From a virus (taxonomy: Duplodnaviria; Heunggongvirae; Uroviricota; Caudoviricetes), in IMG/VR virus record IMGVR_UViG_3300015174_000024: 15,100 nucleotides of DNA; one strand, 5' to 3'. The position numbers and the translations under genes were made by a program. Positions within the stretch are counted from its first letter, which is position 1. The number at the start of each line of letters is the position of its first letter. Positions 8,072-15,100 of this stretch are shown here, piece after piece. The notes under the pieces are model-generated. The model saw only the letters and a list, made by a program, of their open reading frames with translations, searched no databases and was not told the origin of the DNA.

Positions 8072-8482
8072 TCAGAACGGAATATCATCACCGTAAGGGT
8101 CATCGCCTCCCGCTGGTGGCTGATTACCCTGTGTGCCTGTGGTCTTGCGTCGGCTCCCACCAGGACGTGCCGCACGGGCACTGATTACGCTGTCTGCAAT
8201 AACCTGATAACCCTGCCGCGTTTCCCCGTTCTGTCCGGTCCACTGGCTGACCTGCATCGTGCCGGATACGCTGGCAACGTCGCCTTTTTGATGTTTAGCC
8301 AGGAAGTCGGCCTGCTTACCAAATGCGATGACCGATAGCCATAACGTCGCCTGTCCATCCTGTGCCTGGCTGCATGGCAGCGATACCGCCATACGCGCCA
8401 GCGTCATCGGTGTACCCTTGCTGGTCTGTTTTACCTGCGGGTCGTCCACCAGCCGCCCGTAAGCTGCTATCTGTGCTGTCAT
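8072..8482 (-). CDS. ssb: single-stranded DNA-binding protein
   Basis: 136 aa; OB-fold-like core (WLSVIAFGK), Gly/Pro-rich linker and the diagnostic acidic C-terminus ending DDIPF; ATGA overlap with the upstream gene. Confidence 0.8.
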   Translation of the reverse strand: MTAQIAAYGRLVDDPQVKQTSKGTPMTLARMAVSLPCSQAQDGQATLWLSVIAFGKQADFLAKHQKGDVASVSGTMQVSQWTGQNGETRQGYQVIADSVISARAARPGGSRRKTTGTQGNQPPAGGDDPYGDDIPF

Positions 8483-8757
8483 GATTCCACCTCTCCGGTT
8501 TTAACGTTGATGGTTGTTACCTGTTCCGCTTCGGCAATCTCCCGCTCTGTCAGCGTGGCAAAATTTGCCGCCGTCGTGGTCATGAATGCGCTTATCAGTT
8601 CGGGATGTGCTTTCGCGTATCCTTCCCCCGCGTGGCGGTCTATCGTTCTGATTGCCACCTTTAAAGCGTGCTCTGTCATGTCTAACGCGCGATATTTCGG
8701 TTCTGTTCTGTCTCTGCGTTTTTTGAGTGATTTATTAAATTTCCCTGAAGTGTGCAT
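8479..8757 (-). CDS. hypothetical protein, 92 aa
   Basis: ATG 8757 with a GAGGGGG SD about 12 nt upstream; first gene after the iteron region; coupled to ssb. Confidence 0.45.
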   Translation of the reverse strand: MHTSGKFNKSLKKRRDRTEPKYRALDMTEHALKVAIRTIDRHAGEGYAKAHPELISAFMTTTAANFATLTEREIAEAEQVTTINVKTGEVES

Positions 8758-9045: not shown

Positions 9046-10800
9046 TTATAAAAACGCGTCGCACTCGTCTGTTGTTATTGCGTTAGTCTGCGTTACTCCC
9101 TTAACTTTCCGCGTAATATATTCATGTCCGTAAACTTTCGCGGCTGGCTTCATAGCCTTGCCAAAGTCATTTACGTTTAGCGGTTTGCTCCTGCCTGCGT
9201 ACGCCATAAACGCCAGATAGACGCGGTAAAGGCTGTTTCTGGTCGTGTACTTCACTGAATCGCCACCGCCGCCCATCATCAGGCCGCGTGCTTCCTCCAG
9301 AAAATTCAGGAACTGGCAAAACTCAATAACCGGATCCGTCTGTTGCTTTATTGCCAGAGCTTCATCACCGTCACGCTGTTCCAGTAGTAAAGCCCGTGCC
9401 TTCTCAGGGTCGGTAAAGTTCGCCAGCAATCGGCGGATAATGACAGGGATTTCAGCCGCGATCTTTTCCGGTAGCTCCCTGTCTTTTTCGGCCTCACTGA
9501 CGATATTGTCGAAACGGAAAATCACGCGACGACGTGCCACACCTCCGGCCCGTTCGGTGAATATCATCGGGTTATTGTTGGTCGCCAGCACCACCGCCCT
9601 GATTACCGCCGTGAAACGCTTTTCGTATTTCGGGTTAATTTCCACGGGGTCACCGCCCGTGATTTTCTTGATGCCCGTTCCTTCGCCTGTATATTTCGGC
9701 TGGTCAGCCAGGACGATAAGACGACTCCCGACAACCTGCGCACGTCCACCAGCATCATCAAGCGATGTCATTTCAGCGCTTACCGTGTTCTGTTTCCCTG
9801 CCAGAAGGCTGGCTATGTGTGTGAATGTACTTTTACCGCTCCCGCCGTCTCCGGTGGCCTCAATAAACATCTGCCAGTCGTACCGGTTCGCCATAATCAT
9901 GTACAGCGCGGCACATATACGCATCATCTTGCGCGGGTCTTTTCCGGCTGCGTGCTCAAGCCATTTATGAAAGTTTGGCGCGTTATCGCGGATGTTCTCC
10001 CCTGGTGCTGGTGGCGTGTACTCAATGCCGTTGTGCGTGGTGATCCAGTTCTCCGGCGTGTGCGGGGAAAATTCCCCCGTTTTCAGGTCAAGCGCACCAT
10101 TGGCGAACGGCAACAAATCGCCGGACGGCTCGCCCATTGGTTCGGCAATAACTTTTAACGCTTCCACGGCGTTATTGATTACGCGCTTGCTGAAAGTGGC
10201 CCTGTGCTCTGAATAGATCGCCACCATTTCGCGGCTAAGTTCCATTGTGCTGACCGGACACCATACCCCGCCGCGCCATACGTGAACGATTTCACTTTCA
10301 GGATGTACGCAAACGCCATCAAAGCGATCGGCAAGCAGCTGCGCGCGCTCACTGTCCGCCATCTGCGAAAGTTGCGCCTTTTGCTTTACCGGAAGCTCAA
10401 TGACCAGACCATCAGAAAGATTCTGGCGCTCACGGGCCAGATATTCGCGCCAGTTCTCCACCTTCTGACCGTGCATACCATCAGGGTAAAAATTTGCATC
10501 CTGTACGCCTGCCGCCGCCAGCTTCTGACCAATCCCCTTTATCATTACTGGCGCAAGATATCCGGCCCTGAATATGCGCACGGATTCTCTGCCTTCCGGC
10601 ACAATTTGCAGCTTATCCAGTTCGGATAACTGCTGCTCCCCAAGCCACACAGGAGGCTCATTATCTCCGGCCATACGCGCGTCATGTTCCTGCCATTGTT
10701 TTGCGTGTGACCAGGCATCACTACCCGCAAAAATAATGACTTCTGTTTCTTTGTGTTTTATGCCGCGTGACTGCTGTTTTACGTTCGGTGCCAGTTTCAT
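9046..10800 (-). CDS. primase/helicase replication protein (P4-alpha-like, Pri-Rep)
   Basis: 584 aa; central Walker A GDGGSGKST and a D5-like NTPase region, with an N-terminal primase-like domain; ATGA overlap with the upstream small ORF. Confidence 0.85.
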   Translation of the reverse strand: MKLAPNVKQQSRGIKHKETEVIIFAGSDAWSHAKQWQEHDARMAGDNEPPVWLGEQQLSELDKLQIVPEGRESVRIFRAGYLAPVMIKGIGQKLAAAGVQDANFYPDGMHGQKVENWREYLARERQNLSDGLVIELPVKQKAQLSQMADSERAQLLADRFDGVCVHPESEIVHVWRGGVWCPVSTMELSREMVAIYSEHRATFSKRVINNAVEALKVIAEPMGEPSGDLLPFANGALDLKTGEFSPHTPENWITTHNGIEYTPPAPGENIRDNAPNFHKWLEHAAGKDPRKMMRICAALYMIMANRYDWQMFIEATGDGGSGKSTFTHIASLLAGKQNTVSAEMTSLDDAGGRAQVVGSRLIVLADQPKYTGEGTGIKKITGGDPVEINPKYEKRFTAVIRAVVLATNNNPMIFTERAGGVARRRVIFRFDNIVSEAEKDRELPEKIAAEIPVIIRRLLANFTDPEKARALLLEQRDGDEALAIKQQTDPVIEFCQFLNFLEEARGLMMGGGGDSVKYTTRNSLYRVYLAFMAYAGRSKPLNVNDFGKAMKPAAKVYGHEYITRKVKGVTQTNAITTDECDAFL

Positions 10801-11919: not shown

Positions 11920-12136
11920 GGTGCACCTCCTGCACATCAGCCATGATAATTTTTCCGGCCTTATCCAGTGCCTGATCGGCTTTTAGCTGCACAAATGCTA
12001 AATAATGGAAGATGCATTCTGATTCTCTGGCTGCGTGTTTATGCGCCCTGTCAGCAATAACAGAAATATCAATAAGCGCGTGCATCAGCGTAGTGAGCGC
12101 GGCGGCGGCTGCGTCCGGTGTGGTTTTATTGCACAT
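11912..12136 (-). CDS. hypothetical protein, about 74 aa
   Basis: Start placed at ATG 12136 (MCNKTT...) with an AGGAGG SD; the ORF-track start at 12178 is further upstream. Confidence 0.5.
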   Translation of the reverse strand: MCNKTTPDAAAAALTTLMHALIDISVIADRAHKHAARESECIFHYLAFVQLKADQALDKAGKIIMADVQEVHHA

Positions 12137-12326
12137 GGCACACCTCCTGACGAATACGGGCGGCGAATACAGCAACACAACCGGACGGGCAACGGCTACG
12201 CGCTTCGCGTTCCGTCCAGGCGGTTACGTGGATGATTTGAGATTCTCCGGCACTTAGTGCCAGAAAACGCCACACAAAGGCAGTTTGTGTGTGCGCCAGA
12301 CGTGGGGTATGCTGTGTTCCAGCCAT
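12126..12326 (-). CDS. hypothetical protein, 66 aa, first gene of the leftward operon
   Basis: ATG 12326 preceded by AGGAG 8 nt upstream; it is the in-frame C-terminal part of an implausible 378-aa ORF-track call. Confidence 0.45.
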   Translation of the reverse strand: MAGTQHTPRLAHTQTAFVWRFLALSAGESQIIHVTAWTEREARSRCPSGCVAVFAARIRQEVCHVQ

Positions 12327-12435
12327 AATCGTTACTCCTGTTAACGGTTTGGTTAGACGCCCCGCTACTGCCGCAAACAGTTCGGGGCGTTGTCGTTTAC
12401 ATCCTCTTACTGAGGTGTGATTTAAATTAAATTCA

Positions 12436-12491
12436 ACTGAATCACAGGTCAAGTGTTTTTTGTGATTCTTTTTTGTGTATACTGAATCACA
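12436..12491. promoter_or_regulatory. divergent promoter/operator region: GAATCACA at 12439-12446 and 12484-12491, inverted copy TGTGATTC at 12461-12468
   Basis: Read directly. Inverted pair has a 14-bp spacer and overlaps a minus-strand TTGACC -35-like hexamer (revcomp of 12450-12455); the third copy abuts a plus-strand TATACT -10-like hexamer (12478-12483). Confidence 0.5.
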
Positions 12492-12513
12492 TCTTTTGTT
12501 TAGGAGAATGCAC

Positions 12514-12819
12514 ATGGCAAAAAACACTATCAACGACAAATCAAAACAGATTTCAATTCGTATCCCACATGATGCTTTTGATGGCATGGAATCCGTAAAA
12601 CTGGACGGCGAAAGCAACGCCGGATTCATAGTAACCGCCATGCGCGGGGAGATCGCCCGCCGCCAGGCAGAAGGAAGCAGTGAAAATCCTCTGATTTCTT
12701 CTCTCGATGCATTGGCGCAAGTGGAAAAAATTGGTATTAAAGCTACGGAAGAACTCGGGCAACTTATCGCCATCGCTCGTGAAGAACTACAGCGCCGCAA
12801 GGCCAAAGAATCAGAATAA
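12514..12819 (+). CDS. ribbon-helix-helix-like DNA-binding protein (candidate island repressor)
   Basis: AGGAG at 12502-12506, ATG at 12514; N-terminus KQISIRIPHDAFDGME...GFIVTAMRGEIARRQ fits a beta-strand/helix/helix pattern; divergently placed from the replication operon. Confidence 0.5.
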   Translation: MAKNTINDKSKQISIRIPHDAFDGMESVKLDGESNAGFIVTAMRGEIARRQAEGSSENPLISSLDALAQVEKIGIKATEELGQLIAIAREELQRRKAKESE

Positions 12820-12876
12820 TCACTATCAGCGCCGTGGTGTGAGGTATTACGGCGCATTGCTATGCAGGACAACACA

Positions 12877-13050
12877 ATGACCGATAAAGAATTGACCAAA
12901 ACATTATCACCGGCACGGAAAAGACGGCGCAGAAAGATAGAGCATGAATCAGAAAGATTCGCGCCATGTGCTTTTGCCCTTGAGCAATTCCTTAAAGAAT
13001 ACAGGGAAAAGCGCTCATTGCAGGTATGGCAACGAACTGAACCAGACTGA
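12877..13050 (+). CDS. small basic hypothetical protein (about 58 aa)
   Basis: Weak SD; Arg/Lys-rich (RKRRRRK); follows the RHH gene on the same strand. An alternative ATG lies at 12862. Confidence 0.3.
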   Translation: MTDKELTKTLSPARKRRRRKIEHESERFAPCAFALEQFLKEYREKRSLQVWQRTEPD

Positions 13051-13144
13051 TTGCATTGCCCACCAGCCTGATAGCGGCTATCATCCCCGTGCTTATGTTT
13101 GGGATCACACACACAAACGGCGCAGCGGGTTATCTGTTCAGAAA

Positions 13145-13174
13145 GGCGGCTACATTTCGGGGCCGCTTTTTTTA
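13145..13174 (+). terminator. rho-independent terminator ending the short rightward transcription unit
   Basis: GGCGGC ... GCCGC stem followed by TTTTTTT on the plus strand. Confidence 0.45.
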
Positions 13175-13319
13175 TGCCTGAAAAACCCCAATTTTGTGGT
13201 TTTCCAGTCTCACCAGGGCGAACGAATCCCCGCCCACGTTCTGGCGTATATTCAATCTTCATGGTTATAGCTCTGTGTTCAGATGATTGATGTGTGGCGG
13301 CTGCGTGCCGCCAGCGTGA

Positions 13320-13508
13320 TTAATGAACTGCCTTGCAGCTATCCTTCCAGGCCAGAACCTCGGATAAAGACCAGCCAACGGAACGACCGCTAAGTTTACG
13401 ACGTGATGGGAATTGTCCGGCCTTTTCCAGGCGGTAGCGGCATGAGCGGCTAAGGCCTGTTAGCTTTTCGCATTCTTTTTCACGTATAAACCGATCAGTG
13501 CTTAACAC
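13320..13508 (-). CDS. alpA: AlpA-family (Xis/Vis-like) regulator/excisionase
   Basis: 62 aa; LTGLSRS..YRL..G.FP....L....VGW...EV..W pattern; GTG start with AAGGGGG SD; located next to int. Confidence 0.8.
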   Translation of the reverse strand: MLSTDRFIREKECEKLTGLSRSCRYRLEKAGQFPSRRKLSGRSVGWSLSEVLAWKDSCKAVH

Positions 13509-13789
13509 TATTGCCCCCTTTCGTTTCTTAAAGAGTTATTTCGTGTTCTATTGCGTTGGGATGTGTCTGATTGTGTCAGGATGATTCAGAGTTGGCAAAT
13601 GTTGAGGTCGCATGGTTTACAGAAAGAGGAATAATCAGGATAAAATCATTTAAATTCATGTTAATACAAAGGCATAAAATATTGTTTCATGCCTTTTTTC
13701 TCGCTATTTAAAGAGTGATTCGCTAGTGTATAAAAAACCAGTAACACATTAAAAATCAGCTACTTATAAATCCGTACACTTTTTCGCCT

Positions 13790-13882: not shown

Positions 13883-15100
13883 TTATTTTCTTCTGGCTAC
13901 TGGTAGCGTGGTTACGTTTTCATGTGTTCCCGCCAGTATCCCTAACCGCTCCGTCCACATATCCAGCGCATTGCGTTTAGCATCCAGATAACGGGAATGA
14001 TTATAAACTCGCTGCATTCCTGGCATCTGGTGGCCTGTAAGCTGCTCCACGACATGCGGATCAACGCCTAAATCGTTCAGCATGGTTGTAAAGGTGCGCC
14101 GGATGTCATGCAGTGACCAGTGAGGATGATTAAGCCTCCTGTGCGCTAATCTTCCATACTGCGATACGCTGGCCTCCTGTTTCACTTCCCCCAGCAATAA
14201 GCCCGTGTGCCTGTTCTGCTCCACCAGCTGCGTGACGAACGGCAGGATCGCTTCCGGTATGGGCCGGAATATTGCGACCTTCGTTTTGCTGTGCTCCTTC
14301 GGAACGGTCCATAGCATTTCCGTAAAATCCCACTCCCCGATCTCCGATAACCTCAGTTCTACCGTTCTGGCTCCGAAGACAATCAGGAGGCGGATTAACG
14401 CGACGTAGTAAGGGGAGAATATTTTTTTGTCCAGTGCCTGCAATAATTCGCCAAGTTCTTTGTTACTTAAGACACGTTCGCTTATATCCGGTTTTTTCCC
14501 AACGTCCGCCACGTTCAGATCGTCCAGAACGTTGCTGATTGCATAGCGCCGCCTACGGCAGAACTTAAGCGCCTGTTTGCACGCCTGTAGCACGAATCCG
14601 GCAGTAACAGGCGTTCGCTTTGCCACCTGGTCAAAACAGGCCAGCCAGTGCCGTAGCTCGCATTTATCCAGCGGCATAGCACCAATCTGCTGTATTACGT
14701 GATTATTAAGTCGCCTTTTCAGGGCGATATAATCCACGCGGTTTTCCTTTACGTAATACTCAAGCCAGTAGGTGAGCGCATCGCCAACCGTTACGGGCTT
14801 TAACGCTTCCTGTACGGTGTAATTCATCTCATGACGTGGATTTTTCCCCTCAGCCAGCCATGTGCGACACTGTGCGGCTTTTTCCCTGGCTGCTTTCAGG
14901 CTCAGATCAGGATAACTTCCCAGCTTAATGCGTTCGGGTCGTGTCTCCCTTCCCGTTCCGGCCCTGTATGTGAAATACCAGGTCAATTTCCCTGATGTTA
15001 AATATTTCACGCTCAGGTTTCCGCCATCACTATAAAACGTGTTTTTCTCCGCTGGCTTACCATGAAGTTTCCTTAGCAAGGTATCGCTCAGTTTGTTCAT
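13883..15100 (-). CDS. int: tyrosine integrase, P4-like with N-terminal arm-binding domain
   Basis: 405 aa; HDIRRTF, LTGHQ and C-terminal VYNHSRY catalytic-Tyr motifs; the ATG is the last 3 nt of the window. Confidence 0.9.
   Translation of the reverse strand: MNKLSDTLLRKLHGKPAEKNTFYSDGGNLSVKYLTSGKLTWYFTYRAGTGRETRPERIKLGSYPDLSLKAAREKAAQCRTWLAEGKNPRHEMNYTVQEALKPVTVGDALTYWLEYYVKENRVDYIALKRRLNNHVIQQIGAMPLDKCELRHWLACFDQVAKRTPVTAGFVLQACKQALKFCRRRRYAISNVLDDLNVADVGKKPDISERVLSNKELGELLQALDKKIFSPYYVALIRLLIVFGARTVELRLSEIGEWDFTEMLWTVPKEHSKTKVAIFRPIPEAILPFVTQLVEQNRHTGLLLGEVKQEASVSQYGRLAHRRLNHPHWSLHDIRRTFTTMLNDLGVDPHVVEQLTGHQMPGMQRVYNHSRYLDAKRNALDMWTERLGILAGTHENVTTLPVARRK

What the first reader, a model, noticed from the sequence alone, without database searches (positions are those of the whole stretch)
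12327..12513. Palindromic operator with divergent promoters and a structured leader
GAATCACA occurs three times: an inverted pair overlapping a minus-strand TTGACC -35-like hexamer, and a third copy abutting a plus-strand TATACT -10-like hexamer. The leftward leader also contains an 8-bp GC-rich stem (12357-12364 with 12383-12390, 18-nt loop) just before the first RBS. This looks like the island's master switch between repression and replication.
Basis: inference. Interest (0 to 1): 0.5.

Follow-up and report, generated by a model that had tools for sequence, protein, structure and literature searches.

The report
Satellite repressor operator inside nested ORF
The repeats are very probably the binding sites of a small repressor that keeps a phage-parasitic island of E. 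coli silent, and this control region also holds a probable antisense RNA and lies inside a long reading frame kept open on the opposite strand, which recalls the immunity region of satellite phage P4.

Summary
GAATCACA occurs exactly three times in 15.1 kb, all within 12439-12491 (0.46 expected), with a fourth degenerate copy at 12416-12423. The 8-bp stem is real.

The window is a capsid-forming PICI-type satellite (int, alpA, D5-type primase, capsid genes). In about 146 related loci from several genera the architecture is constant. The four half-sites change together in at least 8 classes, and each class goes with one version of residues 1-24 of the YlcI/YnfO-family protein. AlpA, the Icd-like gene, the hairpin, orf62 and the replicase all reassort freely. 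One half-site fills the first 8 bp of each promoter's spacer and another abuts each -10.

So a repressor operator over divergent promoters is well supported by comparison. Binding, transcription starts and the ribbon-helix-helix fold are not shown.

Two corrections. The hairpin covaries and pairs fully only on the + strand, followed by a T-tract, so it looks like the terminator of an ~80-nt antisense RNA covering the Icd-like start. The "intergenic" region also lies inside a 378-codon minus-strand ORF ending in the Icd-like protein, as P4 kil nests in eta. AlpA, not this module, is the experimentally known activator. This is a new variant of a known kind.

The parts
12416..12423 (-). Half-site 0 (TGTGATTT on the + strand; degenerate, 7 of 8). 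It lies immediately downstream of the leftward -10 hexamer.
   Evidence: The same position (-98 from the ylcI ATG) carries the class-specific motif in all classes.
12439..12446 (+). Half-site 1 (GAATCACA). It fills the first 8 bp of the leftward promoter's spacer and abuts the -35 hexamer.
12461..12468 (-). Half-site 2 (TGTGATTC on the + strand). It fills the first 8 bp of the rightward promoter's spacer.
12484..12491 (+). Half-site 3 (GAATCACA). It lies immediately downstream of the rightward -10 hexamer and would cover the expected start site.
12424..12452 (-). Predicted leftward promoter, the analogue of P4 PLE: -35 TTGACC (12452-12447), a 17-bp spacer, and -10 TAATTT (12429-12424). The predicted start is near 12417.
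   Evidence: Read from the sequence. In the 17 class representatives, 11 have TTGAC and the other 6 have TTGAT, TTGCA, TTGAA or TTGTA. A TA(A/T)nnT hexamer lies 17-18 bp away in nearly all of them (one has CAAAGT). The site is below the threshold of the generic scan.
12455..12483 (+). Predicted rightward promoter of the ylcI-like gene: conserved -10 TATACT (12478-12483). The -35 position (12455-12460, GTTTTT) is non-canonical and sits in a conserved T-tract.
   Evidence: TGTATAMT is conserved across classes and genera. The weak -35 is read from the sequence.
12514..12819 (+). YlcI/YnfO-family gene (101 aa; RBS AGGAG at 12503-12507). Predicted layout: an N-terminal Arc-like strand and two helices, then a long C-terminal helix. 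This is the proposed repressor.
   Evidence: NCBIfam NF041551, E=2.8e-18. AF2 pLDDT 79, helices at 19-28, 35-54 and 59-100. Residues 1-24 fall into discrete classes.
12355..12399 (+). Conserved hairpin (9 bp plus an inner 3-4 bp helix) followed by the T-rich tract GTTGTCGTTT. Proposed intrinsic terminator of a + strand antisense RNA.
   Evidence: 100% of cells paired, with compensatory changes at 4 of its 12 pairs. All wobbles are G.U on the + strand. The minus-strand consensus keeps only 5+3 pairs of this hairpin.
12320..12399 (+). Candidate ~80-nt cis-antisense RNA. Helix 1 pairs 12321-12324 with 12351-12354. Helix 2 pairs 12330-12334 with 12342-12346, and its loop CTCCTGT carries the anti-Shine-Dalgarno sequence. 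The terminator hairpin follows. The RNA is complementary to the SD and ATG of the Icd-like gene.
   Evidence: MFE -32.3 kcal/mol, z=-4.65. Consensus structure with 21 pairs, 8 of them covarying. 98.3% of cells paired, 0 of 500 shuffles as good. The covariance model finds one copy per element and none in P4. No Rfam family matches. Its expression has not been shown.
12308..12313 (+). Candidate -10 (TATGCT) of the antisense RNA, inside codons 5-7 of the Icd-like gene. A weak -35 TTGTGT lies at 12285-12290.
   Evidence: TATGAT, TATGCT or TATAAT sits at a fixed offset (43 nt before the GGTTAGA motif that leads into the hairpin) in 33 of 38 unique sequences, and is shifted by 1-2 nt in the rest. 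It persists where the overlapping codons change (His to Tyr or Cys; Thr to Asn or Ser; read).
12126..12326 (-). Icd-like (P4 Kil-family) 66-aa gene, the first gene of the leftward replication operon. Its SD GGAG is at 12338-12335.
   Evidence: NCBIfam NF033153, E=5.7e-18. The same model hits the Kil part of the P4 eta ORF, E=7.8e-21.
12126..13262 (-). 378-codon ORF, the analogue of P4 eta. It starts 57 nt after alpA and runs antisense through orf62, the ylcI-like gene, the operator and the hairpins. It ends in frame with the Icd-like protein.
   Evidence: PGAP calls part of it an Icd-like pseudogene. 1725 database proteins match it at E<=0.001, and many of the 120 listed are 260-600 aa entries named Icd-like.
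13320..13508 (-). alpA (P4 vis homologue), the experimentally known activator of Gram-negative PICIs. It lies upstream of the long ORF and in the same reading frame.
   Evidence: Pfam Phage_AlpA, E=1.9e-17. Function from PMC6092414 and the cf-PICI preprint.

Best explanation
The region 12327-12513 is the immunity and control region of a capsid-forming PICI-type satellite. It corresponds to the PLE/eta/kil region of phage P4 but uses a protein repressor.

(1) The 101-aa YlcI/YnfO-family protein is probably an Arc/Mnt-like ribbon-helix-helix domain followed by a long oligomerising helix. I propose it binds four 8-9 bp half-sites spaced about 22.5 bp apart. On each of the two back-to-back promoters, one half-site fills the first 8 bp of the spacer and one abuts the -10. 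Occupancy would therefore shut off both the leftward promoter (Icd/Kil-like gene, then the primase and replication operon) and the protein's own promoter.

(2) A short + strand RNA of about 80 nt, running roughly 12320-12399, is fully complementary to the SD and start codon of the Icd-like gene. It would block translation of leaky leftward transcripts. By analogy with P4, untranslated transcripts would then terminate prematurely.

(3) When a helper phage switches on alpA, transcripts from the alpA promoter carry a long ORF (13262 to 12126). Its translation runs through the antisense of the repressor gene, the operator and the hairpins into the Icd-like frame. This would carry RNA polymerase into the replication operon whatever the state of the repressor or the antisense RNA, and the convergent transcription would silence the repressor gene.

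What is shown: the sequence anatomy, and the comparative covariation and conservation. What is taken from the literature: AlpA is required for induction, and the P4 eta/kil mechanism. What is inferred: binding, repression, expression of the antisense RNA, and translation of the long ORF.
For: Repeats. There are 3 exact copies against 0.46 expected, plus a fourth copy.

Comparative data. There are 51 unique combinations of N-terminus and upstream region among about 146 loci, from Escherichia, Yersinia, Photorhabdus, Pantoea, Lelliottia, Scandinavium, Xenorhabdus, Citrobacter and a contig labelled Pseudomonas lundensis. Half-sites sit at fixed positions, about -98, -75, -53 and -30 from the ATG. 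Their sequence changes in concert in at least 8 classes:
- GAATCACA with KSKQISIRIP
- GAAACACAC with KSQLTTVRVP
- GATATACAC with KSQMTTIRVP
- GTCTTACAC with KSQSLTARIP
- ATGCACAC or ATACACAC with KSQIKNVR(V/I)P
- GTGAATACC with KSQQLNARFP
- and further classes.

Natural domain swap. Citrobacter locus L151 is about 97% identical to the window from codon 25 onward. Codons 1-24 and all four half-sites are of another class, while the promoter hexamers stay the same.

Other candidate readers reassort. Relative to operator class, AlpA alleles, Icd type, hairpin type and the protein's C-terminus, orf62 and the replicase (an identical operator with a RepA helicase in place of the D5 primase) all reassort.

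Protein. The residues that vary between classes fall where hhalign places the DNA-contacting strand residues of Arc. An Arc-like 57-aa protein occupies the same slot in O157:H7 islands.

Antisense RNA.

Nested ORF. The frame is open through the 125-nt operator part in 13 of 14 class representatives, with a per-class shuffle P of 0.02-0.10, while the other two frames carry up to 6 stops each. Over 50 unique loci the stop totals are 106 in this frame against 407 and 563 in the other two. The P4 eta ORF ends in the same Icd-like family domain. The P4 mechanism is summarised in PMC10111431.
Against: No experiment bears on binding, start sites or RNA expression.

Membership of the RHH superfamily is only sub-threshold: Pfam PSK_trans_fac E=0.017, hhalign to Arc at 23% probability, and no RHH hit in the PDB by sequence or fold.

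Both promoters are weak by consensus: 8 of 12 for the leftward one, and no recognisable -35 for the rightward one.

The operator and the N-terminal codons are within 100 bp of each other, so physical linkage alone would produce some co-inheritance.

Half-site orientation is not constant. The IKNVR class reads as two direct and two inverted sites, which does not fit a simple palindromic operator.

The candidate antisense promoter has a poor -35, and its T-tract is interrupted.

Within the ylcI coding part, an open antisense frame is expected from amino-acid composition alone (P about 0.4-0.5). In 14 of 50 unique loci the open frame is not in phase with the Icd ATG.
Confidence: 0.62

Rival explanations
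1. The repeats are real binding sites, but the protein that reads them is not the adjacent YlcI-like protein. It could be AlpA, another island protein, a helper-phage protein or a host factor. The co-variation with the N-terminus would then be hitch-hiking through tight linkage.
For: The operator and codons 1-24 are contiguous, so they are inherited together. DNA binding by YlcI/YnfO proteins has never been shown; the literature search found nothing functional. AlpA is the only regulator with experimental support.
Against: One operator class occurs with at least 4 unrelated AlpA types, and one AlpA type occurs with at least 3 operator classes. The same holds for Icd type, hairpin, orf62 and replicase. 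A host or helper factor would not explain why 8 or more discrete specificities coexist within one species. It would also not explain why the only hypervariable protein segment nearby is the predicted DNA-reading strand, in a protein that is otherwise conserved.
Confidence: 0.12
2. The hairpin acts in the leftward mRNA leader, for example as an attenuator, an RNase barrier or a translational regulator of the first gene. On this view there is no separate antisense RNA.
For: The hairpin lies about 27-60 nt downstream of the predicted leftward start and just upstream of the SD. The window's own minus-strand copy folds well: 98 nt at -30.1 kcal/mol, z=-2.1. Helix 2 is a DNA palindrome and forms on both strands, placing the SD in a loop.
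Against: Across 28 sequences every wobble is G.U on the + strand and A.C on the - strand, and none goes the other way. The + strand consensus is 21 pairs at -25.0 kcal/mol, against 13 pairs at -12.6 on the - strand. The T-rich tract follows the stem only on the + strand; on the minus strand the stem is followed by UCUAACC. A conserved -10-like hexamer sits at a fixed distance upstream on the + strand.
Confidence: 0.2
3. The repeats are iterons, or another replication or packaging element, rather than a transcriptional operator.
For: A spacing of about 22 bp is typical of iterons. The region lies at the head of the replication operon.
Confidence: 0.03
4. The long minus-strand ORF is a by-product that is never translated, and annotation pipelines over-call it. 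AlpA-driven read-through, if it happens, would not depend on it.
For: The amino-acid sequence of its middle part is not conserved between classes and has the Cys/Arg/Ser-rich look of antisense translation. No domain is found outside the Icd-like end. Within ylcI the open frame is expected by chance. The SD before ATG 13262 is weak. The frame is out of phase with the Icd ATG in 14 of 50 loci.
Against: The frame has no stop through the non-coding 125-nt operator part in 13 of 14 sequence-unrelated classes, each with shuffle P of 0.02-0.1. It is also open through a different repressor cassette in O157:H7. When alpA is within about 760 nt, the frame has 0-1 stops all the way to alpA in 37 unique arrangements. 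P4 provides a tested precedent.
Confidence: 0.35

Closest known systems
Phage P4 left-operon immunity region (PLL, vis, eta/kil, PLE, CI RNA, t_imm)
   Same: The gene order is the same: integrase, AlpA/Vis homologue, a long ORF, a promoter inside that ORF, and a small toxic Icd/Kil-family protein as the in-frame end of the ORF and first gene before the primase. Both small proteins hit NCBIfam NF033153. The logic is also the same. Translation of the long ORF from upstream transcripts overrides immunity that acts on the internal promoter's transcripts (PMC10111431; Forti et al. 1999, cited there and not readable here).
   Different: No CI/C4-type immunity RNA or seqA/seqC sites are found, meaning no Rfam hit even at E<=5. 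Instead there is a divergently transcribed protein-repressor gene with four operator half-sites, embedded antisense inside the long ORF, plus a candidate cis-antisense RNA on the opposite strand. The long ORF is 378 codons against 138 in P4 and has no Phage_ASH or Bro domain here. BLASTP finds no pairwise similarity between P4 Eta/Kil and the window protein.
Phage P22 immI region (Mnt and Arc ribbon-helix-helix repressors, divergent Pant/Pmnt, sar antisense RNA); details recalled from memory
   Same: Both have a small Arc-type repressor with a C-terminal oligomerisation helix (as in Mnt), operators that overlap two back-to-back divergent promoters, autoregulation, and a short antisense RNA covering the ribosome-binding site of the first gene of the repressed operon.
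   Different: Homology is not demonstrable; hhalign to Arc gives only 23% probability. Half-sites are about 22.5 bp apart rather than about one helical turn. There are four to five dispersed half-sites instead of compact 17-21 bp operators. The whole region lies inside an ORF on the other strand.
Gram-negative PICI / cf-PICI regulation by AlpA (EcCICFT073, EcCIEDL933)
   Same: The island type is the same: int, alpA, replication module, and capsid, portal, protease and terminase genes. AlpA is required for induction and transfer in the prototypes. [quoted passage not shown]
   Different: Those papers describe no repressor, operator or antisense RNA. [quoted passage not shown] An O157:H7 island with the same layout, probably of the EcCIEDL933 type, carries a different 57-aa Arc-like gene with its own palindromes in this slot.
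YlcI (DLP12) and YnfO (Qin) of E. coli K-12
   Same: They belong to the same NCBIfam family, YlcI_YnfO_N (NF041551).
   Different: These are y-ome proteins with no published function found. Their genomic context was not examined here.

Membership tests
Capsid-forming PICI (cf-PICI) / P4-like satellite | Tyrosine integrase, AlpA, a primase/replicase, and its own capsid, portal, protease, head-tail connector, HNH and terminase genes, with no tail or lysis genes, in about 15 kb | tested here: met
   [not shown]
P4-type nested eta/kil arrangement | A small Icd/Kil-family ORF is the first translated gene after an internal promoter | tested here: met
   NF033153 hits window 12126-12326 (E=5.7e-18) and the last 65 codons of the P4 eta ORF (E=7.8e-21). 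The predicted leftward promoter lies about 90 nt upstream.
P4-type nested eta/kil arrangement | The small ORF is the in-frame 3' end of a longer ORF that starts upstream of the internal promoter and downstream of the AlpA/Vis gene | tested here: met
   The ORF 13262 to 12126 is 378 codons. It is in frame in 36 of 50 unique loci, and its openness through the operator is non-random.
P4-type nested eta/kil arrangement | Immunity through CI (C4-family) RNA pairing with seqA/seqC | tested here: not met
   No Rfam family reaches its gathering score in the window. There is no C4 hit at E<=5 in 12100-13700.
P4-type nested eta/kil arrangement | Translation of the long ORF suppresses termination of transcripts from the upstream promoter | not testable with these tools
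   This needs reporter fusions, stop-codon mutants and Rho inhibition.
Ribbon-helix-helix (MetJ/Arc) DNA-binding proteins | A significant match to an RHH family model or to a solved RHH structure | tested here: inconclusive
   [not shown]
Ribbon-helix-helix (MetJ/Arc) DNA-binding proteins | An N-terminal strand with alternating hydrophobic and polar residues ending in R-x-P, then helix A, a G-x-S/T turn, and helix B | tested here: met
   The sequence is KQISIRIP-HDAFDGMESVK-LDGESNAG-FIVTAMRGEIARRQ. AF2 gives an extended N-terminus and helices 19-28 and 35-54. R16, P18, E33 and F38 are invariant. The strand itself cannot form in a monomer model.
Repressor with cognate operator (immunity specificity module) | Repeated sites on the promoter that covary with the DNA-reading part of the protein and with nothing else | tested here: met
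   Direct binding was not tested.
Intrinsically terminated small antisense RNA | A G+C-rich hairpin followed by a U-tract on the transcribed strand, with a promoter at a suitable distance upstream | tested here: inconclusive
   The hairpin covaries and favours the + strand. The T-tract is interrupted (GTTGTCGTTT). A -10 hexamer is conserved at a fixed offset but the -35 is weak. The terminator scan missed it because its loop limit is 8 nt. There are no expression data.
Any Rfam RNA family | A covariance-model match | tested here: not met

The most novel reading that the evidence does not exclude
Satellites of this group may carry a three-layer immunity switch. A modular protein repressor comes in at least 8 natural specificities, each with a matching set of operators. 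A cis-antisense RNA is aimed at the translation start of the Kil/Icd-like gene. An eta-like ORF is kept open across the operator and across the antisense of the repressor gene. AlpA-driven, translation-coupled transcription through that ORF would then override both immunity layers and at the same time silence the repressor gene by convergent transcription. If so, regulatory DNA and an oppositely oriented gene would both be under selection to stay translatable on the other strand. It would also supply the repressor whose existence in Gram-negative PICIs was described as unclear in 2018.
Probability: 0.3. Interest if true: 0.75.

Novelty: new variant of a known kind. Interest (0 to 1): 0.6.

Why it matters
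[quoted passage not shown] This module is a concrete, testable candidate for the repression side. The natural specificity classes predict which islands are immune to each other's regulators. A natural domain swap (window against Citrobacter L151) already points to residues 1-24 as the specificity determinant.

It also assigns a likely function to the uncharacterised YlcI/YnfO family. It predicts a new cis-antisense RNA that is not in Rfam. It extends the P4 eta/kil principle to a case where the translated frame crosses an operator and an antisense gene. That bears on how overlapping constraints shape compact mobile elements, and on engineering PICIs as delivery vehicles.

Tried and rejected
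- Rfam at gathering thresholds and at E<=5 found nothing for the hairpin or leader.
- The generic promoter and terminator scan gave no call in the intergenic region. I therefore relied on cross-class conservation.
- A single-sequence AF2 model of residues 1-58 was too poor to use, at pLDDT 60.
- PDB sequence-profile searches gave no significant RHH hit.
- hhalign to Mnt was uninformative.
- Literature searches for YlcI/YnfO function and for an Icd-linked antisense RNA found nothing relevant.
- Forti et al. 1999 (PMC94026) is not held, so the P4 mechanism is cited through PMC10111431.
- BLASTP of P4 Eta against the window's Icd-like protein found no alignment. Family membership rests on the shared NCBIfam model.
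- tblastn of the Icd-like protein against the phage collection found one record and did not find P4.
- Iteron or origin reading: rejected, because the identical operator is linked to a different replicase.
- The open antisense frame as pure chance: rejected for the operator part, but accepted as unremarkable within the ylcI coding part.

Full report
**Context**

The window is a satellite of the capsid-forming PICI type.
- Integrase: 13883-15100 (-).
- AlpA: 13320-13508 (-), Pfam Phage_AlpA E=1.9e-17.
- A 101-aa gene on the + strand: 12514-12819.
- A leftward operon that starts with a 66-aa Icd-like gene (12126-12326) and continues to a D5-type primase (9046-10800).
- In that strain the replicase is a RepA-type helicase rather than the D5 primase, so the regulatory module is a mobile cassette.

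**Observation**

- GAATCACA has three perfect matches in the window, all between 12439 and 12491. The expectation is 0.46, and 0 of 200 shuffles reach three.
- A fourth, one-mismatch copy lies at 12416-12423.
- The four half-sites alternate in orientation and are spaced 23, 22 and 23 bp.
- The 8-bp stem 12357-12364/12383-12390 is exact.
- The generic promoter scan does not call either promoter.

**Comparative footprint**

I collected 7 loci from other genera, about 140 from viral contigs, and one Citrobacter locus.

The layout is the same everywhere: hairpin, half-site, leftward -10, half-site, leftward -35 (GTCAAG on the + strand), T-tract, half-site, TGTATAMT, half-site, RBS, ATG. Half-sites sit near -98, -75, -53 and -30 from the ATG, and some classes have a fifth at -120.

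The promoter hexamers are conserved. The leftward -35 is TTGAC in 11 of 17 class representatives, followed 17-18 bp away by TA(A/T)nnT in nearly all. The rightward -10 is TATACT, TATAAT, TATAGT or TATATT.

The half-sites are replaced as a set. Each set goes with one version of the protein's N-terminus:
- KSKQISIRIP with GAATCACA
- KSQLTTVRVP with GAAACACAC
- KSQMTTIRVP with GATATACAC
- KSQSLTARIP with GTCTTACAC
- KSQSVTARIP with GTAATACAC
- KSQIKNVR(V/I)P with ATGCACAC or ATACACAC
- RSQMKNIRFP with ACACACC-type sites
- KSQQLNARFP with GTGAATACC

Residues 30-101 are conserved in all of them.

The clearest single case is Citrobacter L151. It is about 97% identical to the window from codon 25 to the stop. 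Codons 1-24 and all four half-sites belong to the second class, and the only conserved islands in the diverged part are the promoter hexamers.

**Who reads the sites**

Linkage alone would keep the operator and the N-terminal codons together, so I checked whether anything else tracks the classes. Nothing does.
- AlpA alleles reassort freely.
- So do the Icd type, the hairpin type and the C-terminal allele of the protein.
- So do orf62 downstream and the replicase.

Concerted replacement of four dispersed copies requires a trans-acting reader that differs between classes. The only hypervariable protein segment in the neighbourhood is the N-terminus of this protein.

In that register the invariant Arg16 matches Arc Arg13. 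The class-variable positions 12 and 14 match the base-contacting Gln9 and Asn11, and positions 13, 15 and 17 are hydrophobic.

AF2 gives an extended N-terminus, two helices (19-28 and 35-54) and one long helix (59-100), at pLDDT 79.

Formal RHH membership stays sub-threshold.

In O157:H7 islands of the same layout, probably of the EcCIEDL933 type, the same slot holds a 57-aa Arc-like gene. Its Pfam Arc score is E=0.038, and it aligns to the YlcI-like domain over 48 columns. It has its own GGTAATTACC palindromes.

**Geometry**

For the leftward promoter, half-site 1 fills the first 8 bp of the 17-bp spacer next to the -35, and half-site 0 starts immediately after the -10. The rightward promoter is the mirror image, with half-sites 2 and 3. 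Occupancy is therefore incompatible with RNA polymerase binding at both promoters. The prediction is repression of the replication operon plus negative autoregulation. The spacing of about 22.5 bp (two helical turns) and the long C-terminal helix suggest dimers bridged into higher oligomers, as in Mnt. This last point is inference.

**The hairpin**

An alignment of 28 distinct sequences gives a + strand consensus of 21 pairs at -25.0 kcal/mol, with 8 covarying pairs. The same columns on the minus strand give 13 pairs at -12.6 kcal/mol.

With the structure fixed, 98.3% of cells pair, 0 of 500 shuffles do as well, and slid controls pair at 33-53%.

Every wobble is G.U on the + strand; these would be A.C on the leader strand. 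A T-rich tract follows the stem only on the + strand.

Forty-three nucleotides before the GGTTAGA motif that leads into the hairpin, inside codons 5-7 of the Icd-like gene, a TATGAT, TATGCT or TATAAT hexamer sits at a fixed offset in 33 of 38 unique sequences. It stays -10-like where the overlapping codons change (His to Tyr or Cys; Thr to Asn or Ser).

The predicted RNA, about 12320-12399, has three parts:
- a closing helix;
- a small hairpin whose loop CUCCUGU is the anti-Shine-Dalgarno sequence;
- the terminator.

It folds at -32.3 kcal/mol with z=-4.65. A covariance model finds one copy per element, two where elements are tandem, and none in P4. Rfam has nothing like it. Expression is untested.

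**The region is not intergenic on the minus strand**

A 378-codon ORF runs from 13262 to 12126. It starts 57 nt after alpA and passes antisense through orf62 and the ylcI-like gene, through the operator and hairpins, and ends in frame as the Icd-like protein.

- In 50 unique loci the corresponding frame has 106 stops between the Icd ATG and the ylcI stop, against 407 and 563 in the other two frames. In 36 loci it has none and is in phase with the Icd ATG.
- Within the ylcI coding part this is expected from amino-acid composition (P about 0.4-0.5).
- In the 125-nt operator part, whose sequence differs between classes, 13 of 14 class representatives have no stop, with per-class shuffle P of 0.02-0.10.
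- The frame is also open through the different Arc-like cassette of O157:H7.
- When alpA is near, it runs with 0-1 stops back to alpA.
- 1725 database proteins match it at E<=0.001, and many of those listed are long entries named Icd-like.

This is the P4 arrangement. The P4 eta ORF (8168-8584) ends with Kil, which hits the same NCBIfam Icd-like model. As summarised in PMC10111431, a constitutive promoter lies inside eta, Kil is the truncated product, full-length Eta is made only from the upstream late promoter after the alpA homologue, and Eta translation prevents termination. The difference here is the immunity effector. There is no CI/C4 RNA. There is instead a divergent protein repressor embedded antisense in the long ORF, plus the candidate cis-antisense RNA.

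**Model and confidence**

In the quiescent state the repressor occupies the four half-sites, and any leaky leftward transcripts are blocked at the Icd start by the antisense RNA. On induction, helper-triggered AlpA drives transcripts whose long ORF is translated through the region. This would carry polymerase into the replication operon and silence the convergent repressor gene.

My confidence in each part is:
- operator and repressor pairing: about 0.75;
- the two promoters: about 0.7;
- the antisense RNA: about 0.55;
- functional translation of the long ORF: about 0.5.

All mechanistic steps are inferred from sequence and comparison. Only the requirement for AlpA and the P4 precedent are experimental.

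**Novelty**

An RHH-type repressor over divergent promoters is ordinary, and the nested eta/kil logic is known from P4. Three things appear to be undescribed in the literature I could search:
- the assignment of the YlcI/YnfO family as a modular, multi-specificity satellite repressor;
- the candidate antisense RNA;
- an open frame maintained across an operator and an antisense gene.

I rate the finding a new variant of a known kind, with interest 0.6.

Noticed in passing
window 12126-13262 (-): A 378-codon ORF runs antisense through orf62, the ylcI-like gene and the whole 'intergenic' operator, and ends in frame as the Icd-like protein. PGAP annotates part of it (12705-13262) as an Icd-like pseudogene. 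The frame is kept open across unrelated operator classes.
   Followed up: yes
window 13320-13322 and 13262: alpA and the long ORF are in the same reading frame. They are separated only by alpA's TAA stop and 19 sense codons that contain no start codon. The SD before ATG 13262 is weak. This in-frame relation holds in the arrangements with a 500-503-nt gap, but not in other arrangements.
   Followed up: partly
window 13145-13175: A hairpin (GGCGGC, 10-nt loop, GGCCGC) is followed by TTTTTTTAT on the + strand. It is a likely terminator of the ylcI-orf62 transcript, placed convergently to alpA. It lies inside the long minus-strand ORF, where the trailing tract (CUUUCUG) is weak. It overlaps a weak, non-significant Rfam STnc50 match (E=0.51).
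   Followed up: partly
window 12862-13050 (+): A 62-aa ORF (orf62; basic, contains RKRRRRK) lies downstream of the ylcI-like gene. It is conserved at 77-99% DNA identity in many loci of different operator classes and also occurs in O157:H7 islands. It matches no Pfam or NCBIfam family.
   Followed up: partly
window 12514-12819, residues 58-101: The C-terminal half has invariant I73-G74 within LxxVEKIGxKAxEE. It gives a weak hit to the helix-hairpin-helix domain of Hef (PDB 1x2i, E=0.0079). AF2 nevertheless models it as one continuous helix.
   Followed up: no
[not shown]
   Followed up: partly
[not shown]
   Followed up: partly
L014 2674-2759 and L040 985-1069: These loci hold second copies of the antisense-RNA-like element, next to further Icd-like starts and followed by different downstream sequence without a ylcI-like operator. 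They may be tandem satellites or duplicated Icd modules.
   Followed up: no
L037, L067, L006, L041 (about 120 nt upstream of the ylcI-like ATG): Some operator classes have a fifth half-site one further period (22 bp) to the left, between the hairpin T-tract and half-site 0. The window's class has none.
   Followed up: no
L004, L005 (Pantoea, Lelliottia): In the KSQIKNVR class the four half-sites keep their positions, but their orientation is two direct followed by two inverted, instead of alternating.
   Followed up: no
L151 690-1310 (-): In the Citrobacter relative, the first gene after the leftward promoter is a 206-aa Phage_ASH protein that starts at the position where the window's Icd-like gene starts. 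The small Kil/Icd gene and the Ash/Bro-type gene therefore appear to be exchangeable at this position.
   Followed up: no
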